From positions 1 through 35,538 of the IMG/VR virus record IMGVR_UViG_3300020042_002931: a stretch of DNA of 35,538 nucleotides; one strand, 5' to 3'. Both the position numbers and the translations under genes were made by a program. Below, in pieces: positions 1-35,538 of this stretch; the stretch's first letter is position 1; each line of letters starts with the position of its first letter. The DNA is from a virus (Duplodnaviria > Caudoviricetes). The notes beneath the pieces are model-generated. The model worked only from the letters and a program-made list of their open reading frames with translations. It had not been told where the DNA came from and did not search any database.

Positions 1-2
1 AT

Positions 3-1670: not shown

Positions 1671-1687
1671 TTATCAAAAACAATAAT

Positions 1688-2371: not shown

Positions 2372-2436
2372 CATATCTAACATTTGAGAAACAAAAGAAT
2401 CAAATAGAATCAGATTTAATAAAGAAAAATAAATGA
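2176..2436 (+). CDS. -1 frameshift extension (GT-like): ...LHFRQRTIEKYDDLFGE...FGKRWGWYSSIYAIAQGD...IKKNK
   Basis: Open -1 frame from the T TTT TTT heptamer to a TGA overlapping the next ATG; also open and conserved in copy 2. Confidence 0.7.
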   Translation, partial: FFLHFRQRTIEKYDDLFGEQQGDSDYSASAQFGKRWGWYSSIYAIAQGDLIQFDRVTELPINQCLTYLTFEKQKNQIESDLIKKNK

Positions 2437-3412: not shown

Positions 3413-3573
3413 ATATAGTGAAAATTTATATAACTGATAACGATTTTGTTAAAAGTTTTACGATTGAAAGCGAAAATGTAATTGACTCAAGTCAATATGT
3501 AATTTTATGGAGTTGCAAAGAAGAAATATATATAGATGAAGAATTAATTGATACAAAATATCATACAATATGA
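3409..3573 (+). CDS. Hypothetical protein (54 aa, MNIVKIYITDND...)
   Basis: ATGA-coupled at both ends; conserved in copy 2 (34903..35064). Confidence 0.7.
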   Translation: MNIVKIYITDNDFVKSFTIESENVIDSSQYVILWSCKEEIYIDEELIDTKYHTI

Positions 3574-11559: not shown

Positions 11560-12111
11560 ATGCCTTGCGATATTTCATTAGGAAGAGCCGAACAATGTAA
11601 AAATTCAATCGGTGGATTAAGAGCAGCATACTTCATTAATTGGGGTGATGCTACAACGGTAACATATTCTGCAACTGCAGGAAGTGAAGATGTAATAACT
11701 GCTTTAGGTGGAACTCCTATCGGTTACAAATATGAATTAAAAGGAAGTTCTACATTTGAGCAAACTTTAACTTCATCAAGAGAAAATGGAACTACATTTG
11801 TAGACCAAAAATTATCTTTAAGTATTAAAAAATTAACTGTTGCTGACCACAAACAGTTGAAATTACTTTCTTATGGTAGACCGCAAGTTATTGTAGAAGA
11901 TAACAATGGTAACTTCTTTTTAGCAGGTTTAACTAAAGGAATGGATTTAGTTACTTCAACTATTTCAAGTGGTGCTGGTATGGGCGATATGTCAGGTTAT
12001 AAAATTGAATTTCAAGGTATGGAACCTTTAGCAGCAAATTTTATAGTACCTACTGCTGGTACATTAGTTAGTGCAGTTTTAGCTTCTATTGTTGAAGGTA
12101 CTGTAGCATAA
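11560..12111 (+). CDS. Putative major tail (tube) protein, paralogue 1
   Basis: 183 aa, MPCDISLGRAEQCKNSIGG...SSRENGTTF...GRPQVIVEDNNG. Confidence 0.65.
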   Translation: MPCDISLGRAEQCKNSIGGLRAAYFINWGDATTVTYSATAGSEDVITALGGTPIGYKYELKGSSTFEQTLTSSRENGTTFVDQKLSLSIKKLTVADHKQLKLLSYGRPQVIVEDNNGNFFLAGLTKGMDLVTSTISSGAGMGDMSGYKIEFQGMEPLAANFIVPTAGTLVSAVLASIVEGTVA

Positions 12112-12134: not shown

Positions 12135-12674
12135 ATGCCTTGTGATATAACTTTGGGGAGAGCCGAACAATGTAAGAACGTTATAGGTGGAATAAGGGCA
12201 GTTTGGTTTTTTAATTATCTTAGTAGTACTGTTATAACTGTTGATGGCAATGATGTAATACAAAATGTATCAAATCCTGGTGACGCATCACTATATAAAT
12301 ACGAATTAAAGGGTGCATCAACTTTTGAACAAACAGTTACTTCGTCAAGAGAAAATGGTTCTGCTTTTGTAGAACAGAAATTAACTTTACATTTAAAGAA
12401 GTTATCTATTGCAGACCACAAACAACTTAAAATTTTAAGTTATGGTAGACCAAGAATATTTGTAGAAGATAACAACGGTAACATATTTTTAGCTGGAAAA
12501 GAAAAAGGTATGGAATTAACTTCTTCTACAATTTCTACAGGTGCAACGATGAGTGATATGTCAGGTTATAAATTAGAATTTGTAGGAACTGAATTTATTG
12601 CTGCTAATTTTATTCTCAATAACGATGTAGATGCTGTTGGATTAGAATTTATTGTTGTAGGTACTGTAGCATAA
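12135..12674 (+). CDS. Putative major tail (tube) protein, paralogue 2
   Basis: 179 aa, collinear with paralogue 1; same N-terminal motif and C-terminal GTVA. Confidence 0.65.
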   Translation: MPCDITLGRAEQCKNVIGGIRAVWFFNYLSSTVITVDGNDVIQNVSNPGDASLYKYELKGASTFEQTVTSSRENGSAFVEQKLTLHLKKLSIADHKQLKILSYGRPRIFVEDNNGNIFLAGKEKGMELTSSTISTGATMSDMSGYKLEFVGTEFIAANFILNNDVDAVGLEFIVVGTVA

Positions 12675-18501: not shown

Positions 18502-19617
18502 ATGATACAAATTAAAGAAGAATTTAAAAAATTAATTCCTGCATTAACAAATGAAGAATTTAAACAACTTGAAGCGAATTGCTTGGCTGAGGGTATTCGT
18601 GAAAAAATTATAACTTGGAATGGGTTTATAATTGATGGGCATAACCGTTTTGAAATTGCTACCCGTTGGAATTTAGATTATCAAACTGAAAGTAAAAGAT
18701 TTGATAATGAAAATGATGTTCGTGAATGGATGATTAACAACCAATTTGGTAGAAGAAATTTAAGTAATTATCAAAGAAGTGTTTTAGCTTTAGAACTTGA
18801 AAGTGTATTTTCTGCAAGAGCAAAAGAAAGAATGTTAAGTGGCAAACCTGTGCCGAAATCAGAACAGGGTAGAACTATTGAAAAAGTTGCTGATGTTGCA
18901 AATGTTGGTAAAGATACAATAGCAAAAGTAAAAGTAATTGAAGCCAAAGCAAGTGAAGAAGTTAAAGCACAATTAAGCACTGGCGAAGTAAGTATAAACC
19001 AAGTTTATCAAGAAATAAAAAAAGAGGAAAAGAAAGCAGTTAGAATTGAATTAATTGAACAACAAATAGAAGATATTGAACAGGGTTTATTGCCTGAATT
19101 AGAAGGTTTATTTGATGTTGTTTCAGTTGACCCGCCTTGGCCTTATGAAGGAGAAAACAAAAATATAACTTCATTTGATTCAGTAGGTAGAAGAGTTGCA
19201 AATCCATATCCTGAAATGAGCATTGAAGATATAAAAAAAATTGAAATGCCTTTAATAAATGATGCTGTTGTATTACTTTGGACTACACATAAATTTTTGC
19301 CTGATGCTTTTGAAATTTTAAAAGAATGGGGATTAGATTACAAAGCAACTTTAGTTTGGAATAAAGAAAAAATGGGAATGGGTGCTTGGTTTAGAATGCA
19401 ATGTGAGTTTTGTATTGTAGGAGTTAAAGGTAAACCATATTGGGAAAATACAACCTTTAGAGATATTTTAAACGAACCAAGAAGGGAACACTCAAGAAAG
19501 CCAGATTCGTTTTTTGAAATGATTGAAAAAATAACAATGGGAAGAAGGTTAGAATATTTTAGTAGAGAAAAAAGAAATGGATGGGAAGTTTTTGGAAACG
19601 ATATAAATAAATTTTAA
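18502..19617 (+). CDS. ParB-like N-terminal domain fused to MT-A70 family N6-adenine methyltransferase
   Basis: IIDGHNR and QFGRRNL (ParB-like); VDPPW, LLWTT, LVWNK, HSRKP and LEYFSR (MT-A70). Confidence 0.88.
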   Translation: MIQIKEEFKKLIPALTNEEFKQLEANCLAEGIREKIITWNGFIIDGHNRFEIATRWNLDYQTESKRFDNENDVREWMINNQFGRRNLSNYQRSVLALELESVFSARAKERMLSGKPVPKSEQGRTIEKVADVANVGKDTIAKVKVIEAKASEEVKAQLSTGEVSINQVYQEIKKEEKKAVRIELIEQQIEDIEQGLLPELEGLFDVVSVDPPWPYEGENKNITSFDSVGRRVANPYPEMSIEDIKKIEMPLINDAVVLLWTTHKFLPDAFEILKEWGLDYKATLVWNKEKMGMGAWFRMQCEFCIVGVKGKPYWENTTFRDILNEPRREHSRKPDSFFEMIEKITMGRRLEYFSREKRNGWEVFGNDINKF

Positions 19618-19620
19618 ATT

Positions 19621-20085
19621 ATGAGTTTTCAAATTAAATTGCAAAAAGGAGAACTTGGAGAACAAATAATTTCAAATTATTTAGAAAAAAAAGGGTGGAT
19701 AGTTTACCGCCCTTTTACAAAAGATAAAGCACATTATTTTGATATGCTTTGTACTTATAATAAAGAAAAAGTTATTGCTATTGATGTAAAAACAAAAGCA
19801 CGATTAAATAAATGGAACGCACAAGGGATAAATATAAAAAGCTATAATGAGTACTTAAATTTTGTAAAAACTACTTCGGTTAATTTTTACCTTATTTTCG
19901 TAGATGACAAAACAGGAGCAGTTCATTTAGCTGATTTAATTAAATTAAAAAACCCAATATATCCAAATGAAAAAATAATAGCTTGGAATTTGAATGATAT
20001 GAAATATTTATTTACAATTACAGAAAATGAAATTAAAGAACTATCTAAATACGACCAAAGAAATTATGAGTTTAAGCCAAGTTAA
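19621..20085 (+). CDS. PD-(D/E)XK nuclease-like protein
   Basis: KGELGEQII...FDML...IDVKTK motif. Confidence 0.6.
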   Translation: MSFQIKLQKGELGEQIISNYLEKKGWIVYRPFTKDKAHYFDMLCTYNKEKVIAIDVKTKARLNKWNAQGINIKSYNEYLNFVKTTSVNFYLIFVDDKTGAVHLADLIKLKNPIYPNEKIIAWNLNDMKYLFTITENEIKELSKYDQRNYEFKPS

Positions 20086-20897: not shown

Positions 20898-21452
20898 ATG
20901 GAATTAACACTTAATCAAAAACTATCTTTAATTCAAAAAGAATTTAAAGCAAACAAATCAAAATTAAATAGTTTTGGAAAATACAACTTTAGAAGTGCAG
21001 AAGATATATTAGAAGCACTTAAACCTTTTAACGAAAAATATAAAGTGAATTTTACAATTACAGAATCAATAGTTGAATCACAATTTTTACAATTTCCAAT
21101 GTTACGTTCTGTAGCTGCAATAAGTGATGATTTAGACACACTAACGGCTTCAGCAATAGTTGGTGTAGATTTAGAACAAAAAGGAATGCAAATGCCACAA
21201 AAGTTTGGTTCTGCAAGTTCTTATGCTAAAAAGTACGCATTAGGTAATTTATTGCTAATTGACGATACACAAGATGCAGACGCATCAAATAAGCACGAAA
21301 AGAGTACTTCTAAAGAAGAATTAAAATGGTTAAATAAAAATACACCTGAATTTAATAAAGCATTAGAATACGTTAAAAATGGTGGTTTAGTTTCTGCAAT
21401 AGAAGCTAAATATAAAATGACTAAAGAAGTGAAAGACGAATTAACTAAATAA
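20898..21452 (+). CDS. erf: ERF-family single-strand annealing protein
   Basis: YNFRSAEDIL and GSASSYAKKYALGNLLLIDDTQDAD signature. Confidence 0.88.
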   Translation: MELTLNQKLSLIQKEFKANKSKLNSFGKYNFRSAEDILEALKPFNEKYKVNFTITESIVESQFLQFPMLRSVAAISDDLDTLTASAIVGVDLEQKGMQMPQKFGSASSYAKKYALGNLLLIDDTQDADASNKHEKSTSKEELKWLNKNTPEFNKALEYVKNGGLVSAIEAKYKMTKEVKDELTK

Positions 21453-21507
21453 GTTATAACGGTTGAGTGTAAAAAATCGTTTTAATGTTTTTTACACTTT
21501 GTTATAA
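21453..21507. repeat. attC-like hairpin A1
   Basis: GTTATAAC-ggttg-AGTGTAAAAAA-11 nt-TTTTTTACACT-tt-GTTATAA. Confidence 0.8.
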
Positions 21508-21548
21508 GTATGTTAATTTTTAGTTTTACCTTATAAAAAATATATAAT

Positions 21549-21782
21549 ATGAAAAGAGAATTGAAATGTATTCACAATAGAGCAATAAATCCAGAAATGG
21601 GTGTAGTGTGTGATTTAAGACAACCAAACTCATTGTGTAAAAACTGTAAAACATTCAAGGCGAAATACCCAAGTTATTGCTGTCAAAAATGTGGAGAATG
21701 TATAGGTTGGCTTGGTAGATTTATTGAATGGGTTTATTGTGGTTTGATAAAGCATAAATGTAAATCCAAAGCTAAAAATTAA
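21549..21782 (+). CDS. Cassette-borne Cys-rich protein (77 aa)
   Basis: ORF inside GTTA...TAAC unit 21501-21793. Confidence 0.65.
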   Translation: MKRELKCIHNRAINPEMGVVCDLRQPNSLCKNCKTFKAKYPSYCCQKCGECIGWLGRFIEWVYCGLIKHKCKSKAKN

Positions 21783-21786
21783 TTAC

Positions 21787-21917
21787 TTATAACTATCGTA
21801 TAGACGTCTGTTGCGTAAAAACACAAAACCATCTTTCAGTTTAACACGGAATTGAAAGGTACAAAACAATCACTAAATTAATCACAATGTAGCAATAGCG
21901 TGTAATTGCTGTTATAA
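21787..21917. repeat. attC-like hairpin A2
   Basis: TTATAAC...TAGACG[T]CTGTTGC ... GCAATAG-CGTGTA...GTTATAA, with inner stem CTTTCAGTT/AATTGAAAG. Confidence 0.7.
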
Positions 21918-21926
21918 CCAGTTATT

Positions 21927-22142
21927 ATGTGGAATAGAGAATTAAAAGAAAGAATAAAGTTATTAGAATATGAGAATTACTTATTATCTAATAAACTAAA
22001 AGAAATTGAAAAGCAGTTAAAACCAATTATGCCATCATTTTCATTTCCAAGATTAATTAGAGAAGATGGAATTGATTTAAGTTACGAACATTTAAGAAAA
22101 AAATATCGTGATTTCGATGTTATTTACAAAGATGGGTTATAA
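21927..22142 (+). CDS. Cassette-borne hypothetical protein (71 aa)
   Basis: ORF inside unit 21911-22153. Confidence 0.65.
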   Translation: MWNRELKERIKLLEYENYLLSNKLKEIEKQLKPIMPSFSFPRLIREDGIDLSYEHLRKKYRDFDVIYKDGL

Positions 22143-22146
22143 TTGG

Positions 22147-22213
22147 TTATAACGTTTACAGCTATACGTCAGGTTTTGTTTTTCAAAAAACTTGCGTATA
22201 GGTGGTGTTATCG
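22147..22213. repeat. attC-like hairpin A3
   Basis: TTATAAC...CTATACG[T]CAGGTTTT-9 nt-AAAACTTG-CGTATAG...GTTATCG. Confidence 0.8.
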
Positions 22214-22256
22214 GCTGCCCTTCTTTAGGAATGATTAATAATTTAAAATAAATAAA

Positions 22257-22496
22257 ATGGAACAAACAACACTTAAAAAGCTAATTGATTTTAATGATAA
22301 ATTGATAGCTAAAAATGGAGAAACTTTAACTGCATACGAAATTTTACAAAAAGTAATTCGTAAAGCTGCGGAACTTGTTGAAGAAGAAAAAACAATTATT
22401 GCAGATGCTTTTAACGAAGGTTATAGAGCAGGTAATTATGACAGGGGAACTTCTGGAATTGAATACTATGTCGAAAATTTCGGTGATGTCAGTTAG
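22257..22496 (+). CDS. Cassette-borne hypothetical protein (79 aa)
   Basis: ORF inside unit 22207-22509; resembles 30514..30726. Confidence 0.7.
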   Translation: MEQTTLKKLIDFNDKLIAKNGETLTAYEILQKVIRKAAELVEEEKTIIADAFNEGYRAGNYDRGTSGIEYYVENFGDVS

Positions 22497-22502
22497 GGTT
22501 GC

Positions 22503-22578
22503 CGATAACTATCGTATAGACGCTGTAGATTTAAAAAACAAAATAAGTATTATCTATTGCGTTTATACTAAGTTATAA
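22503..22578. repeat. attC-like hairpin A4
   Basis: CGATAAC-tatc-GTATAGACGC-tg-TAGAT ... ATCTA-tt-GCGTTTATAC-taa-GTTATAA. Confidence 0.75.
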
Positions 22579-22582
22579 TTAT

Positions 22583-22590
22583 TATATTTG
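22583..22590 (+). promoter_or_regulatory. Promoter -7 box TATATTTG for the SSB-like gene
   Basis: TAnnTTTG about 55 nt before the ATG at 22646. Confidence 0.6.
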
Positions 22591-22645
22591 TAAAACTGAA
22601 TAGCTGACAACAGTAAAAAAAGGTAAGCAATAAAAAACAAATAAT

Positions 22646-22942
22646 ATGGGTGCATTAATTAATTTAAGTTTAAGAGTAGACAAATTACCAAAAGAGAAGT
22701 TTGTTCAAGGTAAAGATGGAGCAGTTTATTACAATTTTACTATTGGAGTAAATGATGAATCTAACCAATGGGGTCAAAATGTTTCTGCAACAGATTCACA
22801 AACTAAAGAAGAACGTGAAGCTAAAAAGCCAAAGTCTTATTTAGGTAATGGAAATGTAATTTGGACAGATGGTAACATTAAAATTGCTGATAAAAAAGCA
22901 GAAGTTACTGCAGAAGTAGTAGGAGCGGATTTGCCGTTCTAA
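22646..22942 (+). CDS. Putative single-stranded DNA-binding protein
   Basis: 98 aa, beta-rich, C-terminal DLPF tail, near erf. Confidence 0.65.
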   Translation: MGALINLSLRVDKLPKEKFVQGKDGAVYYNFTIGVNDESNQWGQNVSATDSQTKEEREAKKPKSYLGNGNVIWTDGNIKIADKKAEVTAEVVGADLPF

Positions 22943-22950
22943 ATTTAATT

Positions 22951-22977
22951 GGGTAGTGTAAAAGCTACCCTTTTTTT
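22951..22977 (+). terminator. Intrinsic terminator
   Basis: GGGTAGT-gtaaaa-GCTACCC-T7. Confidence 0.85.
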
Positions 22978-22996
22978 AAACAAAGAAAACAATAAT

Positions 22997-23839
22997 ATGG
23001 ATATAGAAGCACAAAGATTATTAATGCAAATGTACGAGGAAGAATGCTTTATTAATCCATTAGAAAAAATAGAACACCCAAAACCTGCAATATCATTTGG
23101 AACTAAAAGTTATGAAACAAAAGATGGCGAAGTAAGTTATCCAGTACCATTAGGAACATACGGAAACTTTAGTTTTATACAAGCACCGCCAAAATCAAAG
23201 AAAACATTTTTTGTAAGTTTATTATCAGCAGTTTATTTAGCTGAAAATTTACAATCATTTGCAGGTGATTTAAAAGCAAATAGACACAATCAGCATTTAG
23301 TACATTTTGATACAGAACAAGGTAACTTTCACGCTGCAATGGTATTTAAAAGACCATTAGATATGACTTCAATAAAATCAGATAAATACCACACATTAGC
23401 ATTAAGACAATTAGGATTTAAAGAACGTATAGACTTTATAGAATATTATCTTTATGACAAATTAGAAGGTAAAAATATTGGATTAGTAATTATTGATGGA
23501 ATTGCAGATTTATGTAGTGATGTAAATAACATTGAAGAATCAAATAATGTGGTTCAAAAGTTAATGAAATGGACAAAAGAATTGAATTGTCATATAATAA
23601 CAGTTATCCATAGTAACTTTGGTTCAGATAAACCAACAGGTCATTTAGGTTCTTTTTTAGAAAAGAAAACAGAAACACAAATACAATTAGAATTAAATAC
23701 AGTAAATAAAGGATTAGTAACCGTAAGTTGTAAACGCTCAAGAAACGCACCATTTGATAACTTTAGCTTTAAAGTTAATAGTTTTGGATTGCCACAAGTT
23801 GAAGGTGCTTTTTACGACCCATTAAAAGATATATTTTAA
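22997..23839 (+). CDS. RecA-like AAA ATPase/helicase (AAA_25-like)
   Basis: Variant Walker A APPKSKKT, FDTEQG, Walker B VIIDGIADL, VIH...GHLGS. Confidence 0.8.
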   Translation: MDIEAQRLLMQMYEEECFINPLEKIEHPKPAISFGTKSYETKDGEVSYPVPLGTYGNFSFIQAPPKSKKTFFVSLLSAVYLAENLQSFAGDLKANRHNQHLVHFDTEQGNFHAAMVFKRPLDMTSIKSDKYHTLALRQLGFKERIDFIEYYLYDKLEGKNIGLVIIDGIADLCSDVNNIEESNNVVQKLMKWTKELNCHIITVIHSNFGSDKPTGHLGSFLEKKTETQIQLELNTVNKGLVTVSCKRSRNAPFDNFSFKVNSFGLPQVEGAFYDPLKDIF

Positions 23840-23840
23840 A

Positions 23841-24290
23841 ATGATAAAATTTGAAAAATTTTTAATAGAAAAAGAATATTTAAAGTTTGCTTTTAATGGC
23901 AAAGAAATGAAGTATTACAAACCAAAAGAACATATTATTTCGACAATGTTAAATTTAGGGCATCGTTATATACATAATTCAGATACTAATTTGTTAAATA
24001 AAATAGAACAAGGTAAAAGTGTTATGGAAAAGGATTTTACTTGGGAAGATAGAAAAGGCGAAATATTTATAGGTTTACACGAAAAAGATAAACCTGTTAC
24101 GCTAATTAGTCCAAGACCAAGAATAGAAATAAAAAGATTAATAGATAATAAAGTAGTTGTTTTTAATGAACGGTATGATAATGAAATGAATGTTGTTTTA
24201 TCAAAAATTGATTTTGAAGATATTTTAAAAGCAATGTATAATAAAGAAATAATATTAAAAATAGATTTAACTAATGGAAACAACAATTAA
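23841..24290 (+). CDS. Hypothetical protein (149 aa)
   Basis: ORF track. Confidence 0.65.
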   Translation: MIKFEKFLIEKEYLKFAFNGKEMKYYKPKEHIISTMLNLGHRYIHNSDTNLLNKIEQGKSVMEKDFTWEDRKGEIFIGLHEKDKPVTLISPRPRIEIKRLIDNKVVVFNERYDNEMNVVLSKIDFEDILKAMYNKEIILKIDLTNGNNN

Positions 24291-24561
24291 AAATCACATA
24301 AACGAATTACAAACTTCTGCGACAAGAATGTTAGTATTAAATTCAGATAACAAAATGTTAATAAGTTATTTTAAAGACTTAACAGAAAAGTTGTTATATT
24401 TGAAACAATTAGTTGATATGGAAACTAAATACAACTGGATTGAAATAGAAAATTTAATGTTAAAGTTAAAAGAAATAGATACAGAATTAACACACATTAA
24501 TATTGAAGTACAAATAGCAGAAGTAAAAACAGAAAAGAAATCAGCATATATAAAAAATTAA
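24274..24561 (+). CDS. Hypothetical protein (95 aa)
   Basis: ORF track; packed operon. Confidence 0.65.
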   Translation: METTIKNHINELQTSATRMLVLNSDNKMLISYFKDLTEKLLYLKQLVDMETKYNWIEIENLMLKLKEIDTELTHINIEVQIAEVKTEKKSAYIKN

Positions 24562-24565
24562 AATT

Positions 24566-24781
24566 ATGGAATTATTTACATTAATATTAGTATTTATTTT
24601 AGCAGTAGTATTTTTAGCAACAAGTTTTTTTGAATGTGATGTAATAATCACGCCAATTAAAGGAGTAATGTTTGGTGCATTATATAACGATGATGTGTAT
24701 ATTACAGAAACAGACCACACAATTCAAATAGTAATATTATTTATATCCTTTAATTTTTTATGGACAACTACAAATGGTTAG
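24566..24781 (+). CDS. Small membrane protein (71 aa)
   Basis: N-terminal hydrophobic helix. Confidence 0.6.
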   Translation: MELFTLILVFILAVVFLATSFFECDVIITPIKGVMFGALYNDDVYITETDHTIQIVILFISFNFLWTTTNG

Positions 24782-25302
24782 AACAGGTTGCAAAACATCA
24801 CAAAGAATGGGTAGAAGTTATTTATAAACTTGGCGAGTATGATTATGCAGAAGATATAGTCCAAGAAAGTTACATTGCTTTAATGAAATATGCTGATGCT
24901 ACAAAGCTAATTGATGTAAATGGTAATGTACGAAAAGGATATATGTTTTTTACTTTACGTTCTTTGTATTATCAGTTTTACAATAAAAAGAAAAAGATTA
25001 ATAAAGTATCTTTTGATGGTTGCTGGGAATTATTTGATGAAACAAACGTAGAAGAACACAAAGCATATCATAATATCTGTTTAATAATAGATGAAGAAAT
25101 AGATAATTGGCATTGGTATGACCGCAAATTGTTTAAATTATACCGAGATACAGATATGTCAATGCGGGATATAGCAAAAGAAACAAACATAAGTTTAATA
25201 TCAATTTTTCATAGCATTAAGAATTACAAAGAAATATTAAATACTAAATTTCAAAAAGATTATCAAGATTATATTACAAATGACTATAATAATATTTACT
25301 AA
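24760..25302 (+). CDS. ECF-type sigma-70-like factor
   Basis: Region 2-like AEDIVQESYI and region 4 HTH SMRDIAKETNISLISIFHSIKN; 180 aa. Confidence 0.75.
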   Translation: MDNYKWLEQVAKHHKEWVEVIYKLGEYDYAEDIVQESYIALMKYADATKLIDVNGNVRKGYMFFTLRSLYYQFYNKKKKINKVSFDGCWELFDETNVEEHKAYHNICLIIDEEIDNWHWYDRKLFKLYRDTDMSMRDIAKETNISLISIFHSIKNYKEILNTKFQKDYQDYITNDYNNIY

Positions 25303-25511
25303 TGAATTGGAATTATATAGAAGGTTTAATTAAATTTTATAATTATATAGATTTTAACACACTATCTAAAGTTAAAATAGAAGAAATACCAGCAACAAAT
25401 GATTTAAAAATGATATTTTCAGTATCTAATATTATTCATTTAGTAAGGGAAAAAGATTACAAAATTACAAAAGAAGATTTGAATTATATAAACAAAATTA
25501 AAAACAATTAA
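25302..25511 (+). CDS. Hypothetical protein (69 aa)
   Basis: TAATG-coupled to the upstream gene. Confidence 0.6.
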   Translation: MNWNYIEGLIKFYNYIDFNTLSKVKIEEIPATNDLKMIFSVSNIIHLVREKDYKITKEDLNYINKIKNN

Positions 25512-25512
25512 A

Positions 25513-25893
25513 ATGGCAAGAGGTAGAAAAGCAAAAGGTTTAGGTGATACAATAGAATCTATCACAACCGCAACAGGAATTAAAGCAGTAGTAGAAACAT
25601 TTAGCAAAGCAACTGGATTAGATTGTGGATGCGACAAACGTAAAGAAACATTAAATAAATTGTTTCCTTATAATTCAAACATTAACTGTTTAACAGAAGC
25701 AGATTATAATTTATTAACAGGGTTTTTAGACCCTTTAAAAAACACATTAACACCAAGTGAACAATTAATAGTATCAGATATTTATTTTAACGTATTTAAT
25801 TATCGTTTGCAATTATCATCTTGTGGTTCTTGTTGGAAAGGGAAAGTAGAAGAATTAAGAAAAGTTTATAACGAATACAAATTAAATGACTAA
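25513..25893 (+). CDS. Phage protein with GLGDT...CGC...CGSC motifs (probable metal binding)
   Basis: ORF track; Cys pattern. Confidence 0.7.
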   Translation: MARGRKAKGLGDTIESITTATGIKAVVETFSKATGLDCGCDKRKETLNKLFPYNSNINCLTEADYNLLTGFLDPLKNTLTPSEQLIVSDIYFNVFNYRLQLSSCGSCWKGKVEELRKVYNEYKLND

Positions 25894-26281
25894 CTGGAAA
25901 GAAGTTGATTTATTTGAATGGTTAAAAGAAAATGTATATCCTGATTTAGTTAAAGCTAAGAATCAAATGTCAAGGTGGGATTGTTACAGTCCCGCTTCAG
26001 GTCATAGATTAGAATTAAAGTGTAGAAAAGCACATTATGGTACTTTATTACTTGAAAAGAAAAAGTACGATGCAATGAAGCAAGAATGTGAAAAGCATTT
26101 AGATACACCAATGTATTTTAATTCAACTCCAAAAGGTATTTATAGTTTTAATTTAAACATAATTATACCTGAATGGGAAACTAACTTTAAGAATCCAGCA
26201 ACAACACAATTTTATAATACCAATAAAGTAGAAAAAGAAGTAGCATATTTAGAAATAACAAAAGCAAAACAATGGAAATAA
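25886..26281 (+). CDS. PD-(D/E)XK nuclease-like protein
   Basis: E...RWDC...LELKCR motif. Confidence 0.6.
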   Translation: MTNWKEVDLFEWLKENVYPDLVKAKNQMSRWDCYSPASGHRLELKCRKAHYGTLLLEKKKYDAMKQECEKHLDTPMYFNSTPKGIYSFNLNIIIPEWETNFKNPATTQFYNTNKVEKEVAYLEITKAKQWK

Positions 26282-26628
26282 ATGTAATACAGCAAGAGTA
26301 TTTAAAATCAGTAATATTAAGTCAATTATTACTTGAAGCAAACGAAAGTTTGTTTTTTACAACACAATACAAACAACAAATTAAACACAAAATAAATAGT
26401 TTAAATAAAGATTTAGAAGAAACAGTAAGAAAAGAATATAGTATAATTTACAATACAGACCCTGAAACAACAACAAACATTTTAAATAGTATTGAAGCAA
26501 TAGTTAAAAAACTGCAAACAAGTTCAATAGATGAATTAGTATTTATAAATGCAGTTATCGACAAATATAAAGAAAACAAAGAATGGTTTTCAGAACACGC
26601 TGAAACAGAGTTTTTAAAATTAAATTAA
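26272..26628 (+). CDS. Hypothetical protein (118 aa)
   Basis: ORF track. Confidence 0.65.
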   Translation: MEINVIQQEYLKSVILSQLLLEANESLFFTTQYKQQIKHKINSLNKDLEETVRKEYSIIYNTDPETTTNILNSIEAIVKKLQTSSIDELVFINAVIDKYKENKEWFSEHAETEFLKLN

Positions 26629-26633
26629 AAAAT

Positions 26634-26810
26634 ATGGAAATTAAAATGGTTTTATATGTAGACGAAAAAAACATATCACAAATAAATTGGAATACAGATA
26701 ATAAATTTATTGCGGAAGATATAAATGAAATATTAAATTCAAAACATATACCAGTAGAAAAAACAATAGAAGTAATTACAAAAATATTAAATAATAAATA
26801 TGAAAAGTAA
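26634..26810 (+). CDS. Hypothetical protein (58 aa, MEIKMVLYVDEK...)
   Basis: Fills the gap; TAATG-coupled to the next gene. Confidence 0.6.
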   Translation: MEIKMVLYVDEKNISQINWNTDNKFIAEDINEILNSKHIPVEKTIEVITKILNNKYEK

Positions 26811-27073
26811 TGGCAAAAAAACAAATAGAAAAATATATTCCTACAGATGCGGAATTACAATGTAGTTACATTTGCCATAAAAATGATTTAGCTTATGTTA
26901 TACAACCAATACAAAATTCAAAGAAATACAAAGTAGTTAAGTTTCAAATATCAAACAGGTTAGAAGTACATACTTTAAAAGATAACGCACAAGATTTAGA
27001 ATTAACAGAATACGAAGCATTAAAGAAAACAATGGAACTTTACACACAACACTCAAAAAGATTTAACAAATGA
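26810..27073 (+). CDS. Hypothetical protein (87 aa)
   Basis: ORF track. Confidence 0.65.
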   Translation: MAKKQIEKYIPTDAELQCSYICHKNDLAYVIQPIQNSKKYKVVKFQISNRLEVHTLKDNAQDLELTEYEALKKTMELYTQHSKRFNK

Positions 27074-27255
27074 AAGATACAATAGTAAAATCAGTTATAA
27101 ATCAATTTAAACAGCGTTCTGAAGTAGGAATTAATAAATATAACACAACATTAGATAGAACAGATTTAACACGCTTAGAATGGTTGCAACACGCACAGGA
27201 AGAAGCAATGGATATGATTTTATATCTTGAAAAATTAAAACAATATGAAAAGTAA
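27070..27255 (+). CDS. Small all-alpha protein, possibly MazG/NTP-pyrophosphatase-like
   Basis: GINKY...WLQHAQEEAMD..LY pattern (EExxD). Confidence 0.5.
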   Translation: MKDTIVKSVINQFKQRSEVGINKYNTTLDRTDLTRLEWLQHAQEEAMDMILYLEKLKQYEK

Positions 27256-27379
27256 ACAATCAGCACTGCAAAGAATAAATAGAATTATAGATTTTAACTG
27301 GAAACGTGGAAACAATAAAGAATCAGTTAATGAAGTTTACAGAAAAATAATTAATCAAAAGCTATCTAATAAAAGGTAG
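27245..27379 (+). CDS. Basic hypothetical protein (44 aa)
   Basis: MKSKQSALQRINRIIDFNWKRG...; overlaps the upstream gene. Confidence 0.55.
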   Translation: MKSKQSALQRINRIIDFNWKRGNNKESVNEVYRKIINQKLSNKR

Positions 27380-27387
27380 CTTTTTTT
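27357..27387 (+). terminator. Intrinsic terminator
   Basis: AAAAGCTATCT-aataaa-AGGTAGCTTTT. Confidence 0.75.
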
Positions 27388-27392
27388 ATTTT

Positions 27393-27453
27393 GTTAAATA
27401 TTTGTTAATTTTTAATAAAAAGTTTTTTAATGTAAATAACTTGTTTATATTTG
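27393..27453 (+). promoter_or_regulatory. Early promoter (TATATTTG) with tandem GTTAA boxes
   Basis: GTTAA at 27393 and 27404; -7 box at 27446-27453. Confidence 0.7.
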
Positions 27454-27476
27454 TATAACAATTAAAAACAAACATT

Positions 27477-27686
27477 ATGACAAAGCAAGAAATTATTGAA
27501 ACATTAAGTAACTGTATTGAAATAGTAAACTTATCAGAAAACACTTATGTAAGAAACAAACTTACACAAGTAGCAGAAGCATTAATAAAAGAATGGAACG
27601 AAAGTGATGCTTATGAGGAAGTAGTTAAACAGGTATTAAATTACGATGAAACAATGTTAAATTTAGATAAAATAAGAATAAGATAG
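27477..27686 (+). CDS. Hypothetical protein (69 aa)
   Basis: First ORF after the promoter. Confidence 0.65.
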   Translation: MTKQEIIETLSNCIEIVNLSENTYVRNKLTQVAEALIKEWNESDAYEEVVKQVLNYDETMLNLDKIRIR

Positions 27687-27700
27687 TAACGGTTGAGTGT

Positions 27701-27850
27701 ATGAGTAGTAAAAATAGAATTATACCAAATGTTCCAAAAGAGGAACGAGTTGGTTTTGAATGTGGTTATCATAAAATACCAAATTGGATGTTAATATTGT
27801 TTGGTATAATTGTATTTGTTGGGATTGTGTGTTGGGTTTATTGTTCATAA
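27701..27850 (+). CDS. 49-aa protein with C-terminal TM helix
   Basis: MSSKNRIIPNVPKEERVGFECGYHKIPNWMLILFGIIVFVGIVCWVYCS; its stop codon lies in the TAAC of the next hairpin. Confidence 0.55.
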   Translation: MSSKNRIIPNVPKEERVGFECGYHKIPNWMLILFGIIVFVGIVCWVYCS

Positions 27851-28057
27851 CGTTTCTCGGCTATACGTCAGGTTTTTTACGGATTTGAAACACTAAATTA
27901 AAATATATGATGCAAGTAATTGAAATGACACACTCTGAAAAAGTAGAGATGTATCAAATGATTGAGAAAGATAGATTGATAGAAATGCTGATAGAAGCGA
28001 ATAATGTTATTAACCGACTAACGGAAGTAAAAAACTTGCGTATAGCCGATGTTAGTG
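27845..28057. repeat. attC-like hairpin A6 with a gene start inside its loop
   Basis: TAAC-gtttc-TCGGCTATACG[T]CAGGTTTTTTAC (27857-27880) ... GTAAAAAACTTG-CGTATAGCCGA (28027-28049)-t-GTTAGTG. Confidence 0.85.
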
Positions 28058-28170
28058 GGCGAAGCGAACTGTTAATTGCCTTGCAGAACATTGAAAAGAT
28101 TTGCGATAACCAAAATCCAACGCACGAAGAAATATGGAGGATTGCTTATGGGGCAATTAATAGCCAGTAA
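27907..28170 (+). CDS. Two-module hypothetical protein spanning a cassette junction (87 aa)
   Basis: Reads through the hairpin arm as KNLRIADVSGRSELL. Confidence 0.7.
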   Translation: MMQVIEMTHSEKVEMYQMIEKDRLIEMLIEANNVINRLTEVKNLRIADVSGRSELLIALQNIEKICDNQNPTHEEIWRIAYGAINSQ

Positions 28171-28261
28171 CGTTTTGCAGCTTTAAGAAGTGGCTGCCTA
28201 AAAATTACTTCATTTGACAAACAATGCTTATGGCAGACATTTTTTAAAGGTGCTGTTATAG
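28165..28261. repeat. attC-like hairpin A7
   Basis: TAAC-gtttt-GCAGCTTTAAGAAGTGGCTGCC ... GGCAGACATTTTTTAAAGGTGC-t-GTTATAG. Confidence 0.8.
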
Positions 28262-28280
28262 GTAGTTAATTTACAGAAAA

Positions 28281-28484
28281 ATGAATAAATTATTACTTAC
28301 ATTAAAAAGAGATTACAACGATTCAATAATTTTAGTTGCAAATAATCATAAGGATTTAGAAGATTACTTACGTTCAAATTATGATTTTCATAAAATAAAT
28401 GTAAATGATGATTCGGTTATTATTGTAGCAAGAGAAGGTTATGAAACAGAATATGGAACACTTGAATGGATACGTCAAGTTTAA
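28281..28484 (+). CDS. Cassette-borne hypothetical protein (67 aa)
   Basis: ORF inside unit 28255-28495. Confidence 0.7.
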   Translation: MNKLLLTLKRDYNDSIILVANNHKDLEDYLRSNYDFHKINVNDDSVIIVAREGYETEYGTLEWIRQV

Positions 28485-28527
28485 TTACCTATAACTACTC
28501 GCTACACGCTATAAATGTATTACAATT

Positions 28528-28710
28528 ATGAAACAGTACACGCAAACAAAAGTAATTCGCATTTCAGAAATGCAATTAAATACGCTTCAAAAAATGAAAT
28601 CTTTAAACGTTGATGTAGGTAATTTTATCAGAATAGCAATACAAGAAAAAATTAAAAGAGATTACAAAGAATTAATATTGAAACCTAAAAAAGAATATTG
28701 TCCGTTTTAA
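28528..28710 (+). CDS. Ribbon-helix-helix-like DNA-binding protein
   Basis: TKVIRISE...VGNFIRIAIQEKI pattern (beta-alpha-alpha). Confidence 0.55.
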   Translation: MKQYTQTKVIRISEMQLNTLQKMKSLNVDVGNFIRIAIQEKIKRDYKELILKPKKEYCPF

Positions 28711-31458: not shown

Positions 31459-32650
31459 CGATAAATTTAATTTATTAGGTTCTGAAAGTAGATACTTTGT
31501 TATAACAGGTGGACGTGGTTCTGGTAAGTCTTATTCTTTAAATTCATTTTTATTAGGATTGACTTATGAAACAGGACACGTAATATTATTTACAAGATAT
31601 ACATTAACATCTGCATCTGTATCTATTATACCTGAATTTATAGATAAGATTGAAACAGCTAATTTAAGCCACGATTTTTATATAACTAAGGACGAAATCA
31701 TAAATAGAAAAACAGGGTCTAAGATTCTATTTAAAGGTATTAAAACAAGTAGTGGTACACAAACAGCATCACTTAAATCATTAGCAGGTGTTACAACTTG
31801 GGTGTTAGATGAAGCAGAAGAATTAACAGATGAAGAAACATTTGAAAAGATAGACTTTAGCATAAGAACTAAAGGCATACACAATAGAGTTTTATTAGTA
31901 TTAAACCCTGCAACAAAAGAACACTTTATATATAAGAAATTCTTTGAAGATAAAGGAGTAGAAGCCGGTAGTAATTTAATCAAAGGAGATACTACATACA
32001 TACACACAACCTATTTAGATAATATTGAAAACCTATCCGAATCATTTATAAATCAAATAGAGAATATAAAGAATCGTAGACCTGAGAAATACAAACATCA
32101 GATATTAGGTGGATGGTTAGATAAAGCAGAAGGTGTTATCTTTACTAATTGGACTATAGGAGAATATAAACAGGTAGGTAAATCTGTATTCGGCCAAGAT
32201 TATGGATTTGCTGCAGACGCATCAACTTTAGTAGAATGTAATATAGACACAACAAACAAACGAATTTATATTAATGAAAGGTTTTATCTGCACGGTTTAA
32301 CTACTTCGCAGATATACCATTTAAATAGGCAACACGCAAATGATTGTTTAATAGTAGCAGATAGTGCTGAACCAAGATTGATAAGTGAATTAGCTACATT
32401 AGGTTTAAATATAGTTCCTGCAATTAAAGGTCCTGATTCTGTTACTTATGGTATTAGTGTATTGCAAGATTATGATTTGATAGTATCACCTGAATCAATA
32501 AACTTAATTAAAGAATTAAACAATTATTGTTGGTTAGAAAAAAGGTCTAAAACTCCAATCGATGCGCACAATCATATTATTGACCCATTAAGATATTGTA
32601 TTACATATCAATTAGGTAACGCAAACAAAGGTAATTACTTTATATACTAA
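31442..32650 (+). CDS. terL: Terminase large subunit (complete)
   Basis: GGRGSGKS, WVLDEAEE and NHIIDPLRY motifs. Confidence 0.95.
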   Translation: MEINLNDKFNLLGSESRYFVITGGRGSGKSYSLNSFLLGLTYETGHVILFTRYTLTSASVSIIPEFIDKIETANLSHDFYITKDEIINRKTGSKILFKGIKTSSGTQTASLKSLAGVTTWVLDEAEELTDEETFEKIDFSIRTKGIHNRVLLVLNPATKEHFIYKKFFEDKGVEAGSNLIKGDTTYIHTTYLDNIENLSESFINQIENIKNRRPEKYKHQILGGWLDKAEGVIFTNWTIGEYKQVGKSVFGQDYGFAADASTLVECNIDTTNKRIYINERFYLHGLTTSQIYHLNRQHANDCLIVADSAEPRLISELATLGLNIVPAIKGPDSVTYGISVLQDYDLIVSPESINLIKELNNYCWLEKRSKTPIDAHNHIIDPLRYCITYQLGNANKGNYFIY

Positions 32651-32799
32651 TGACATACGGAGAAATAATAGCAGCAATACAATGTTACATACATCACGTT
32701 AAAGGAATAGAAGTGGCTATTAATCTACCACGTAATATAGGTGAAATTAAAAAGATGCAACAGATGTATACTATAGCAGCTGAGTATTTAAAAAGTTAA
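32650..32799 (+). CDS. Small hypothetical protein (49 aa), homologue of 1254..1403
   Basis: MTYGEIIAAIQCYIHHVKG... Confidence 0.75.
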   Translation: MTYGEIIAAIQCYIHHVKGIEVAINLPRNIGEIKKMQQMYTIAAEYLKS

Positions 32800-32844
32800 A
32801 TAATTGTTAAAACTAATTTATGTAACAAATTTATATTATATTTG
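32795..32844 (+). promoter_or_regulatory. Promoter (TATATTTG) with tandem GTTAA boxes
   Basis: GTTAA at 32795 and 32806; -7 box at 32837-32844. Confidence 0.7.
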
Positions 32845-32869
32845 TTAAAAATTTAAAACAAACAAACAA

Positions 32870-33076
32870 ATGAAAAAAATTAAAGTAGCAGTTAATTATT
32901 GTAATATAGAATTTGAAGTAAAAGGATTCTATACAAAAGGTGATTCATATGATTATACAGGTAGCACTATTGAAGATGAAGAAATATTAATAGAAGGTGT
33001 TGATGTGTATGAAATACTATCTTCAAAACAAATGAATGATATAATTGATTTAGCAATACATCAAATAGAAGATTAG
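32870..33076 (+). CDS. Acidic hypothetical protein (68 aa), alternative occupant of the variable slot
   Basis: Unrelated to 1471..1584 at the syntenic position. Confidence 0.7.
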   Translation: MKKIKVAVNYCNIEFEVKGFYTKGDSYDYTGSTIEDEEILIEGVDVYEILSSKQMNDIIDLAIHQIED

Positions 33077-33097
33077 GTTAATTAAATTTGGTTAAAG

Positions 33098-33126
33098 AGG
33101 TGTGCAGAAATGTACGCCTTTTTTTT
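33098..33126 (+). terminator. Intrinsic terminator
   Basis: AGGTGTGCA-GAAA-TGTACGCCT plus T-run. Confidence 0.85.
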
Positions 33127-33133
33127 GTTTAAT

Positions 33134-33156
33134 ACAATATCACAAAATAGTTATTA
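33134..33156 (+). promoter_or_regulatory. Putative late promoter ACAA-N13-TTATTA
   Basis: Boxes retained while the spacer differs from copy 1. Confidence 0.6.
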
Positions 33157-33173
33157 ATATAAAAAACAATAAT

Positions 33174-33857
33174 ATGAAATTAGAAATAAGCATACCTACA
33201 GAATTAAAAGAAATTAAGTTATCACAATATCAAGCGTTCTTAAAGATAGCTAAAGATAATGAAGATGAAGAATTTTTGAATCAGAAAATGGTACAAACAT
33301 TTTGTAATATAGATTTAAAAGATGTAGCTGAAATTAGATTTAAAGATGTATTAGAAATAACTGCATCACTTGGTAAAATGTTTAATGTGCAATCACATAA
33401 ATTTATAAACAGATTTAAACTTGGTGGAGTTGAGTTTGGTTTTATTCCTGAATTAGAAGATATGACCTTTGGTGAATATACAGATTTAGATTCATACATA
33501 GGTGATTGGGATAATATGCACAAAGCTATGGCAGTATTATATAGACCAATTACAAAGAAGGGTTTAAATAACACGTATGAAATAGAAAAGTATAATGGTA
33601 GTATTACATATAGTGATGTAATGAAACACGCACCTTTGGATGTTGTATTTGGTGCTAATGTTTTTTTTTACAATTTAGGCAACGAACTATTGAAAAGTAC
33701 ACTGACTTATTTGGAGAACAATCAGGAGACACAGACTATTCTGCATCAGCACAATTTGGACAACGGTGGGGATGGTACAGTTCAATCTATGCTATTGCTC
33801 AAGGAGATCTTACAAGATTTGATAGAGTTACCGAATTACCAATTAACCAATGTTTAA
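33174..33857 (+). CDS. Putative tail assembly chaperone, copy 2 (-1 extension to 33919)
   Basis: T9 run at 33661-33669; -1 frame open to TAA at 33917-33919. Confidence 0.65.
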   Translation: MKLEISIPTELKEIKLSQYQAFLKIAKDNEDEEFLNQKMVQTFCNIDLKDVAEIRFKDVLEITASLGKMFNVQSHKFINRFKLGGVEFGFIPELEDMTFGEYTDLDSYIGDWDNMHKAMAVLYRPITKKGLNNTYEIEKYNGSITYSDVMKHAPLDVVFGANVFFYNLGNELLKSTLTYLENNQETQTILHQHNLDNGGDGTVQSMLLLKEILQDLIELPNYQLTNV

Positions 33858-33918
33858 CATATTTAACATTTGAGAAACAAAAGAATCAAATAGAATCTGA
33901 TTTAATTAAAAAAAGATA

Positions 33919-34374
33919 ATGAGTACATTTTACGAAATAACACAAGTGATTAAAAACAAACTGCAAGAAGATTTGTTTGTTAATACAGTAACAACTGGTG
34001 ATATATTTAAAGTTGATTTAAATAAGTTAACTATATTTCCTTTAAGTCATATTATAGTTAATTCAGTATCTTATCAAGGTCCTGTATTGAACTATAATAT
34101 ATCTATTTTATGTATGGATATTGTAGATGAATCAAAAGAAAAGGTAACAGATATATTCTTGGGTAATGATAACGAGCAAGATGTATTAAATACACAATTA
34201 GCTGTAGCAAATAGATTCTTAGAATTATTAAGTCGTGGTGATTTAGCTGATGATTATGAATTAGTAAACAATAGTGCAAACATAGAATTTTTTACAGAAC
34301 GATTTGAAAACAAAATAGCAGGTGTTACATTTACTTTTGATATGGCTATTGAAAACAGAATGACAAAATGTTAA
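33919..34374 (+). CDS. Homologue of 2433..2888
   Basis: Same length, highly similar protein. Confidence 0.75.
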   Translation: MSTFYEITQVIKNKLQEDLFVNTVTTGDIFKVDLNKLTIFPLSHIIVNSVSYQGPVLNYNISILCMDIVDESKEKVTDIFLGNDNEQDVLNTQLAVANRFLELLSRGDLADDYELVNNSANIEFFTERFENKIAGVTFTFDMAIENRMTKC

Positions 34375-34906
34375 AACTTGAAAAGGTAAACAAAACTATT
34401 CAAATGTTTCGTGACTATGTTATTCGTGAAGCAAAGGATAATTTAAAAAGCAAAGGTCATAACAATACAAGTTCATTAGCAAATAGTATTAAAGGTGAAG
34501 TAGTAACAGAAAACGATTTTACTATTGTAGGCTTTAAGATGAACGATTATGGTACGTTTGTAGATTTAGGTGTTAAAGGTAAAACAAGTTCTAATAAAGC
34601 GCCTGATTCTCCTTACAAGTTTGGTTCAGGTACAGGTCAAAAAGGCGGTTTAACAAAAGGAATAAATCAATGGGTTAAACAAAAAGGTTTTCAATTTCGT
34701 GATAAAAAATCGGTAGGTTTTTAAGTTATGATTCAACAGCTTATTTAATTACACGTTCTATATTTCACAAAGGAATTAAACCAAGTTTATTTTTTACAAA
34801 ACCATTTGAAGCAGGATATAAGAAATACATCGATGTAGATTTAATAAAAGCATTTGGTCAAGATGTAGAAACAATGGTAGATTATAATTTAAAAGATATA
34901 AAATGA
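34368..34906 (+). pseudogene. Homologue of 2882..3412 with a 1-bp deletion near 34711 (pseudogene or sequence error)
   Basis: aaatcggtagg versus aaatcaggtagg in copy 1; the downstream part stays intact in another frame. Confidence 0.7.
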
Positions 34907-35064
34907 ACATAGTAAAAATTTATAAAGAAAAAGATACAATTCCAACTTTCATAATAGAAAGTGAAAATTTAATTGATACAACTCAATACGTAATTTTATG
35001 GGATTGCAAAGAAGAAATATATATAGATGAAGAATTAATTGATACAAAATATCATACAGTATGA
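34903..35064 (+). CDS. Homologue of 3409..3573
   Basis: MNIVKIYKEKDTIPTF...IDTKYHTV. Confidence 0.7.
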   Translation: MNIVKIYKEKDTIPTFIIESENLIDTTQYVILWDCKEEIYIDEELIDTKYHTV

Positions 35065-35538
35065 AAGTAGTTAGAGTAAGAAGTCCGTTTATAATTGAAG
35101 TAAACGAAGCTGGTTCAATAGGAAGTAAAATTGAATTATTTATTTATAATAATGGAAGTGGAGTTCCTGCTACCCCTACATATACATTATCAAAACCAAA
35201 CCCAAGTGCAACACAATTAAGTACATCTTATAATGTTTCTAATTTTGTTAAAGAATATATAGATAATATAAAACCAAACAATGTTAATAATCCATTAGCA
35301 GGTAGTGAAGCAGTTAAAGAATGGGTTTTATTTACAGTAAAAAGATATAAATTAGTAGGAAGTACATATACACTTTTAGACACTACTATATATTATGGTG
35401 TTAATGGATTCACAAATTATTCAGATGGAATACAAAATCCAAGCAATACTAAAATTCTTCTTTTAGCAAATCCAAATATTAATAATTATTATTATAAAGA
35501 TTCTTATGCTGATTTAAAAATGGAGTATTTAAATCTTT
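35061..35538 (+). CDS. Homologue of 3570..4688 (3'-truncated by window)
   Basis: MKVVRVRSPFIIEVNEAGSIGSK... Confidence 0.8.
   Translation, partial: MKVVRVRSPFIIEVNEAGSIGSKIELFIYNNGSGVPATPTYTLSKPNPSATQLSTSYNVSNFVKEYIDNIKPNNVNNPLAGSEAVKEWVLFTVKRYKLVGSTYTLLDTTIYYGVNGFTNYSDGIQNPSNTKILLLANPNINNYYYKDSYADLKMEYLNL

What the first reader, a model, noticed from the sequence alone, without database searches (positions are those of the whole stretch)
21501..28495. Gene units have their own unit-specific complementary ends, beyond the 7-bp integron core
Seen: each GTTA...TAAC unit has matching ends of 15-23 nt that differ between units. These are GTTATAAGTA-TG-TTAATTTTTAG / CTAAAAATTAA-T-TACTTATAAC (21501-21793), GTTATAACCAGTTAT / ATAATTGGTTATAAC (21911-22153), GTTATCGGC-TG-CCCT / AGGG-TT-GCCGATAAC (22207-22509), GTTAGTGG..CTGTTAATTGCC / GGCAATTAATAG-CCAGTAAC (28051-28171) and GTTATAGGTAGTTAA / TTAATTACCTATAAC (28255-28495). 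Stop codons fall in the right arm. Inference: two alternating classes of foldable module, each potentially exchangeable, which departs from classical integrons.
Basis: partly seen in the sequence, partly recalled or inferred. Interest (0 to 1): 0.82.

Follow-up and report, generated by a model that had tools for sequence, protein, structure and literature searches.

The report
Two-part swappable gene cassettes in phage
This freshwater phage keeps small accessory genes as cassettes whose two ends pair with each other over 15 bases; relatives gain, lose and reorder a cassette together with the DNA hairpin in front of it, and more rarely re-join hairpins to new genes, which builds hybrid reading frames, likely through an integron-like enzyme borrowed from the bacterial host.

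Summary
Observation confirmed. The window is a tailed phage with two short cassette arrays and no recombinase. Each gene unit's ends pair in a fixed 15-bp pattern with a G·T at position 11. Positions 12-15 pair in 188 of 254 phage units and 34 of 42 Flavobacterium units, but in 1 of 41 classical integron cassettes. The usual moving piece is hairpin plus downstream gene, cut within TAAC: shown by an exact empty site (L108) and by gains, losses and a move among cultured Flavobacterium phages. Hairpins and gene units also re-join at GTTA, more rarely (3 versus 23). The window's ORF 27907-28170 is such a hybrid: its hairpin half and gene half each have other partners in relatives. The likely enzyme is a Xer-like recombinase without the IntI insertion, found in 30 of 51 Flavobacterium genomes. 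The scan noted this system before on other DNA; I found no paper describing it.

The parts
20898..21452 (+). ERF single-strand annealing protein gene; fixed left flank of array 1
   Evidence: Pfam ERF E 5e-27; flank shared with relatives
21457..21504 (+). Hairpin H1 (48 nt, TAAC...GTTA), head of cassette 1
   Evidence: folds, z -2.8; 100% copy heads another gene in L067
21501..21793 (+). Gene unit G1: left arm 21501-21523, ORF 21549-21782 (77 aa, Cys-rich, no family), right arm 21772-21793
   Evidence: homologues L266 (92%, arms kept) and L076/L269 (81%, two compensatory pairs)
21790..21914 (+). Hairpin H2 (125 nt); its first 17 nt are a copy of the head of H4, the rest belongs to a known hairpin family, so its inner stem is damaged
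   Evidence: fold z -0.14; body 90% to lillamy9 phages
21911..22153 (+). Gene unit G2: arms 21911-21925 and 22139-22153, ORF 21927-22142 (71 aa)
   Evidence: 9 of 9 pairs; four homologues keep an H2-family body upstream
22150..22210 (+). Hairpin H3 (61 nt); the same hairpin family heads 10 different gene families
   Evidence: fold z -4.85 on +, -2.5 on -; loose contig ends at both borders
22207..22509 (+). Gene unit G3: arms 22207-22221 and 22495-22509, ORF 22257-22496 (79 aa)
   Evidence: 9 of 9 pairs; end-homologous units in L019 and L088 follow other hairpins
22506..22575 (+). H4, fixed terminal site of array 1 (attI-like role inferred)
   Evidence: same site before the same gene in relatives with 0 to 2 called cassettes; exact empty site in L108
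27687..27851 (+). Decayed cassette: hairpin head without its right half, 49-aa ORF 27701-27850, intact right arm
   Evidence: sequence; only a weak hairpin call
27848..28054 (+). Hairpin H6 (207 nt); its loop holds the ATG at 27907 and the first 48 codons of the hybrid ORF
   Evidence: heads two other gene units in L353 and L354
28051..28171 (+). Gene unit G5: left arm 28051-28080 with a 10-nt insert (28059-28068, holds GCGAAGC), right arm 28152-28171; C-terminal part of ORF 27907-28170
   Evidence: follows two other hairpins in L355 and L357, insert conserved
28168..28258 (+). Hairpin H7 (91 nt)
   Evidence: fold -14.4 kcal/mol on +, -7.2 on -
28255..28495 (+). Gene unit G6: arms 28255-28269 and 28481-28495, ORF 28281-28484 (67 aa)
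   Evidence: 9 of 9 pairs; L346 (87%) has two compensatory pairs and another hairpin
28492..28530 (+). Fixed terminal site of array 2 (no partner GTTA called), directly before the conserved 60-aa gene 28528-28710
   Evidence: 25 of 35 relatives of that gene examined have a hairpin within 1.5 kb upstream, most with a similar site

Best explanation
These are arrays of mobile gene cassettes in which each gene's two 15-bp ends and the hairpin in front of it would join, in a predicted excised circle, into one folded single-strand recombination site, likely cut by a host Xer-like tyrosine recombinase. Shown: the unit that is gained, lost or moved is hairpin plus downstream gene, with the crossover inside TAAC; arrays end at a fixed downstream site; arms belong to the gene unit and co-vary; hairpins and gene units are also re-joined at GTTA, less often, giving in-frame hybrid ORFs. 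Inferred: the coding strand is the folded one (G·T wobbles, energies); full arm pairing exists only in the circle, which would favour insertion over excision; GTTA joins come from the same enzyme cutting the other strand's AAC; the enzyme comes from the host or a co-infecting phage.
For: Arm anatomy: positions 1-10 and 12-15 pair, position 11 is T on the right arm in 100% and G on the left in 79% of 254 viral units, nothing pairs after 15. Circle form folds better than array form in 241 of 257 (-22.8 against -16.3 kcal/mol) and the + strand better than the - strand in 249 of 257. Empty site L108. Seven whole-unit differences among six cultured phages all run TAAC to TAAC, including a 439-bp unit moved to the terminal site in lillamy9-3 (same placement in lillamy9-7). 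Contigs of runs X1 and X2 skip H1-G1-H2-G2 at TAAC. ORFs start inside the upstream hairpin in 80 of 250 cassettes and run past TAAC in 2. GTTA joins: 25 of 37 hairpin families head unrelated genes; identity stops within 2 nt of GTTA in 83 of 110 such pairs; H6 and G5 each have other partners. Enzyme: 265-267-aa recombinases directly after the terminal TAAC in L022 and L066; one close homologue in 30 of 51 Flavobacterium genomes, with a hairpin within 4 kb downstream in 11 of 18 fetched and the same arm anatomy.
Against: No recombination, circle or single-strand fold was observed; all of it is read from genome comparison. The window has no recombinase, nor did the cultured lytic phages match the query, and their hosts were not searched. 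No gene unit is shared between the phage set and 42 Flavobacterium chromosomal units, and ORFs face opposite ways in the two sets. Some homologues lack cassette borders (2 of 4 full-length G1, 5 of 7 G6 without a called hairpin). Two of the three upstream swaps break inside or after the arm, and 15 of 110 pairs share 9 or more nt past GTTA, which looks like homologous recombination. 18 of 46 changed arm positions among homologues are unpaired in one copy. Counts are families, not independent events, and share data. Circle-form energies partly restate the pairing.
Confidence: 0.7

Rival explanations
1. Site-specific recombination acts only at TAAC; the GTTA-side joins are made by phage homologous or microhomology recombination (the ERF gene is adjacent) or when cassettes are first built by the host, as with shared Vibrio repeats.
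For: Swaps that break at GTTA+39, at GTTA+59 or inside the arm; tail of 15 of 110 pairs sharing 9 or more nt past GTTA; ERF gene at 20898-21452.
Against: G5 (93% and 88% identical) follows three unlike hairpins that share only a few bases before GTTA, and H6 (95%, 92%) heads three unlike units diverging within 1 nt after GTTA; L033/L088 swap exactly at GTTA.
Confidence: 0.2
2. One reading: hairpin units and gene units are two classes of module that each fold and move on their own.
For: Each gene unit has self-complementary ends; both borders are exchange points.
Against: No lone insertion seen in 13 cultured arrays; strict alternation; 23 versus 3 asymmetry; a lone gene unit has no inner stem.
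Confidence: 0.06
3. The pairing works in RNA (processing, stability or translation control of small early genes) and the mosaic arises by ordinary recombination.
For: G·T wobble on the coding strand also fits RNA G·U; hairpins sit between genes.
Against: Breakpoints at a 4-nt TAAC with only 4-6 nt shared; empty site; the same strand asymmetry lies on the non-coding strand in Flavobacterium arrays; linked recombinase; no Rfam match.
Confidence: 0.04

Closest known systems
Integrons: IntI, attI, attC-bounded cassettes (PMC5027507, PMC2727003, PMC4889954; passages read)
   Same: Conserved AAC/GTT triplets, variable-length hairpin with unpaired spacer and inner stem, strand asymmetry, chimeric sites in the array, fixed insertion site, cassette ends that pair only with each other.
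   Different: Pairing is 15 bp with a fixed G·T at 11, against 9-11 nt (PMC2727003). In the phage the hairpin heads the ORF and often encodes its start; the fixed site is at the downstream end; linked recombinases lack the IntI insertion; a second exchange border at GTTA makes new hairpin-gene pairs.
Phage-borne CALINs (Qi et al. 2023, PMC9892861; section 3.4 and passages read)
   Same: attC-like clusters in lytic phages without an integrase, DNA methyltransferase cargo, one Polaribacter phage among them.
   Different: In what I read they were found with classical attC models and tested with IntI1; no extended arms, hairpin-first cassettes, Xer-like enzyme or Flavobacterium phages are described ('flavobacter' and 'bacteroid' occur 0 times in the main text). 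Supplements not read.
Xer-type tyrosine recombinases (XerA 4A8E, 5HXY; XerC/D)
   Same: Best sequence matches of the array-linked enzymes, co-linear across the patch III region.
   Different: Below all curated cut-offs; Xer acts on double-stranded dif sites (recalled), here the substrate is predicted to be a folded single strand.

Membership tests
Integron | IntI integrase with the ~35-residue insertion near patch III | tested here: not met
   No PF00589 in the record. Linked enzymes score 115.9 and 158 bits against a 265 cut-off for TIGR02249, in two stretches; 34 aa span what takes 82 aa in VchIntIA 2A3V. Criterion from PMC4889954.
Integron | attC-type hairpin with conserved AAC/GTT, unpaired spacer and inner stem | tested here: met
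Integron | Extrahelical G and T at IntI-read positions | tested here: inconclusive
   One bulged base is seen after the inner stem of H3 and H7; positions were not compared with attC models
Integron | Cassette = ORF followed by its attC, recombined on the bottom strand | tested here: not met
   Phage unit is hairpin then ORF; 240 of 254 ORFs lie on the better-folding strand. Flavobacterium chromosomal units have the classical sense, 35 of 41.
Integron | Fixed insertion site (attI) | tested here: met
   Empty site L108; re-insertion at the terminal site in lillamy9-3; it lies downstream of the array, not upstream
Integron | Cassette promoter Pc | not tested
   not scanned
Integron | R-box pairing of 7 nt, up to 9-11 | tested here: not met
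   15 bp; positions 12-15 pair in 188 of 254 against 1 of 41 classical cassettes
CALIN | Cluster of sites scored as attC by IntegronFinder or HattCI, no integrase nearby | not testable with these tools
   No integrase, but the attC models are not available here
Integron | Recombination of a folded single strand by the cognate enzyme | not testable with these tools
   needs a bench assay

The most novel reading that the evidence does not exclude
A Bacteroidota-wide, non-IntI cassette system with two-part sites in which one recombinase uses both borders: TAAC to shuffle whole cassettes and GTTA to join any hairpin-encoded N-terminal leader to any gene-unit C-terminus. Phages would thereby make new small proteins and new cassettes combinatorially, a direct route of cassette genesis.
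Probability: 0.4. Interest if true: 0.9.

Novelty: new variant of a known kind. Interest (0 to 1): 0.78.

Why it matters
Integron-type shuffling is thought to need IntI, and how new cassettes arise is called unknown (PMC4889954, passage read). Here the same logic runs in Bacteroidota phages and hosts with longer two-part sites and a likely different enzyme, and new cassettes and hybrid ORFs visibly arise by re-joining existing parts. It is testable now: cultured Flavobacterium phages differ by exact cassette gains, losses and moves, many cassettes carry DNA methyltransferases, and their describers tied one methyltransferase to plating efficiency (PMC7077304, passages read).

Tried and rejected
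No G3 protein relative in viral contigs and no match for array 2 among annotated phages. Cargo proteins have no Pfam match over cut-off and only G3 has a weak PHROG match. No Rfam family in the window, L116 or L248. Pairing of the two flanks of one hairpin in the array is at chance level, so the arms do not extend the hairpin as it sits. My first reading of H2 as an ordinary hairpin failed: its head is a copy of H4. The class 'both arms replaced with hairpin replaced' (6 of 6; Fisher p 0.014) is overstated: in the G1/L076 pair the outer stem is of one family, so I do not lean on it. One search was badly windowed and not used. Run contigs cannot show circles or rates, and uncovered parts mean nothing. 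A recalled likeness of H4's ends to loxP arms was not tested. Literature searches listed no paper on this system; subscription journals and supplements were not seen. Sites were called with my own pairing-plus-motif finder (4 shuffled against 319 real calls at the threshold), which misses H2 and decayed sites; the classical set used a separate finder on 13 regions.
Full report
Setting. The record is a 35.5-kb virus contig with terminase, virion, ERF, exonuclease and methyltransferase genes; the best-holding public runs are freshwater metagenomes. Two hairpins match cultured Flavobacterium phages at 90-97%, so a Bacteroidota host is inferred. The finding spans two arrays: H1-G1-H2-G2-H3-G3-H4 (21457-22575) between the ERF gene and a 98-aa gene, and a decayed cassette followed by H6-G5-H7-G6 and a terminal site (27687-28530). 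H units run TAAC...GTTA, G units GTTA...TAAC, and neighbours share the four bases.

Own-end pairing beats all 119 other permutations of the five units; G2, G3 and G6 pair 9 of 9 variable positions, G1 7 of 9 with a bulge, and G5 8 of 9 only after skipping a 10-nt insert. In 182 units from 115 viral loci own ends score 7.0 against 0.96 for random pairs and 1.03 for the two flanks of one hairpin. In 254 units the pattern is GTTA-n5-NG-n4 ... n4-(T)T-n5-TAAC: 65-91% pairing at positions 4-10, G·T at 11 (right-arm T 100%), 69-80% at 12-15, background from 16. As a control I took 41 cassettes beside true IntI genes: pairing fades at 9-11 and is background from 12, as PMC2727003 states (passage). 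At least three of positions 12-15 pair in 188 of 254 viral, 34 of 42 Flavobacterium and 1 of 41 classical units. Homologues keep the pairing: G1 against L076 and G6 against L346 each show two compensatory pairs; over all homologous pairs 28 changed positions stay paired and 18 do not.

What moves. Of 14 homologous gene-unit pairs, 10 keep the upstream hairpin and 1 the downstream one. In the larger set, units at 90% or more identity have 3 extra upstream hairpin families against 23 downstream; the 13 cultured arrays, which overlap that set, give the same numbers over 20 shared units. Among lillamy9-1, lillamy9-3, morran9-1, sniff9-2, snork6-2 and hemulen6-1, seven whole-unit differences all run from TAAC to TAAC with only a few shared bases; lillamy9-3 has a 439-bp hairpin-plus-gene unit cut from mid-array and placed at the terminal site. 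For the window itself, L108 joins the ERF end straight to H4 at TAAC, an exact empty site, and L102, L103 and L106 carry one or two other cassettes there. Contigs of runs X1 and X2 skip H1 to G2 at TAAC. ORFs respect this border: 167 of 250 stop in the last 15 nt, 2 run past TAAC, and 80 start inside the upstream hairpin. The crossover can be placed only within TAAC; AA|C is assumed from integrons.

The second border. Of 37 hairpin families seen in two or more contexts, 25 head unrelated genes; H3 heads 10 gene families. For 110 pairs with the same hairpin end and unrelated genes, identity stops within 2 nt of GTTA in 83 (93% expected of random pairs), and 15 share 9 nt or more. The clearest case is in the window: ORF 27907-28170 starts in H6 and reads through GTTA into G5. 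H6 heads two other self-complementary units in L353 and L354 (hairpin 95% and 92% identical), and G5 follows two other hairpins in L355 and L357 (unit 93% and 88%), always in frame. Among the 80 ORFs that start in a hairpin, 51 read GTT as Val, 27 use a second frame and 2 the third; starts are predicted from the longest ATG frame only. G6 and G3 homologues also follow other hairpins, while G1 and G2 keep their families. Against a clean picture, some swaps break inside homologous genes, and 2 of 4 full-length G1 and 5 of 7 G6 homologues have no called hairpin.

Mechanism. The two arms of a gene are 100 to 1000 bases apart in the array and meet only if the hairpin-plus-gene unit is closed into a circle; there they extend the hairpin's base. 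That form folds better than the array form in 241 of 257 units, and better on the coding strand in 249 of 257. G5's insert holds GCGAAGC, described as an unusually stable DNA mini-hairpin (PMC13037366, search listing and abstract start); it is conserved in three homologues with pairing resuming behind it, which fits a folded coding strand, but it occurs in only 2 of 258 units. I infer a two-part site: outer half from the gene unit, inner half from any hairpin. Hybrid sites in the array keep only TAAC/GTTA and the G·T, which would make excision rarer than insertion. GTTA joins would arise when the other strand's AAC is cut, as happens at low rate in some attC sites (PMC5027507, passages). None of this was observed directly.

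Enzyme. The record has no tyrosine recombinase. In L022 and L066 a 265-267-aa recombinase follows the terminal TAAC directly; it is closest to XerA, below the IntI cut-off, and about 48 aa shorter than VchIntIA across the IntI-specific region. One close homologue is in 30 of 51 Flavobacterium genomes. I fetched 18 of the 30; 11 have a hairpin within 4 kb downstream (several contigs end early), with the same arms but ORFs mostly on the other strand, 35 of 41. The cultured lytic phages gave no match to this query, so a host enzyme acting in trans is likely but untested; no gene unit is shared between my phage and chromosomal sets.

Comparison and novelty. It works like an integron but fails membership on the IntI insertion, cassette polarity and arm length. 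Qi et al. (PMC9892861, section 3.4 and passages) report attC clusters in phages; Nilsson et al. (PMC7077304, passages) describe the Flavobacterium phages and their methyltransferase differences, with no cassette account in the passages seen; PMC8618304 (passages) lists Bacteroidota among phyla with integrons. Searches listed no description of this system; supplements and subscription papers were not seen. The scan noted the system in at least 10 other genomes, and those notes gave me the leads to the Xer-like enzyme and the host arrays, which I tested; look-ups for hybrid ORFs and for lillamy found nothing. Verdict: real, a new variant of integron-type cassette shuffling, with a documented second exchange border; interest 0.78.

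Noticed in passing
window 1-4029 and 31461-35517: The record's ends repeat each other at only 79-93% identity, so it may join two related phages or strains; the arrays lie outside the repeat.
   Followed up: partly
window 21790-21806 and 22506-22522: H2 begins with a 17-nt copy of the terminal site H4, non-reciprocal; unexplained, perhaps a displaced resolution, and predicted to weaken that site.
   Followed up: partly
window 28528-28710: A conserved 60-aa gene (phrog_25647) sits directly behind the terminal site in many phages; 25 of 35 relatives have an array upstream. It looks like a small DNA-binding protein (recalled likeness; atlas gave only hypothetical clusters) and could be an accessory factor.
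   Followed up: partly
L109 (matches at 1813 and 2501 on the reverse strand): The ERF gene lies between two H4-type sites, as if a core gene had once been a cassette.
   Followed up: no
window 11560-12111 and 12135-12674: Tandem paralogous structural-region genes, about 70% identical in DNA.
   Followed up: no
L172, L182, L197: Phage-sense arrays, up to 19 hairpins, in contigs binned to non-Bacteroidota genomes; possibly mis-binned phage DNA.
   Followed up: no
L359-L362 upstream of the G2 homologue; L347-L348: Decayed borders (GTTA changed to TTTA, or arms lost) that would fix a cassette in place.
   Followed up: no
window 18502-20085: DNA methyltransferase gene followed by a 154-aa gene of unknown function, outside the arrays.
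   Followed up: no
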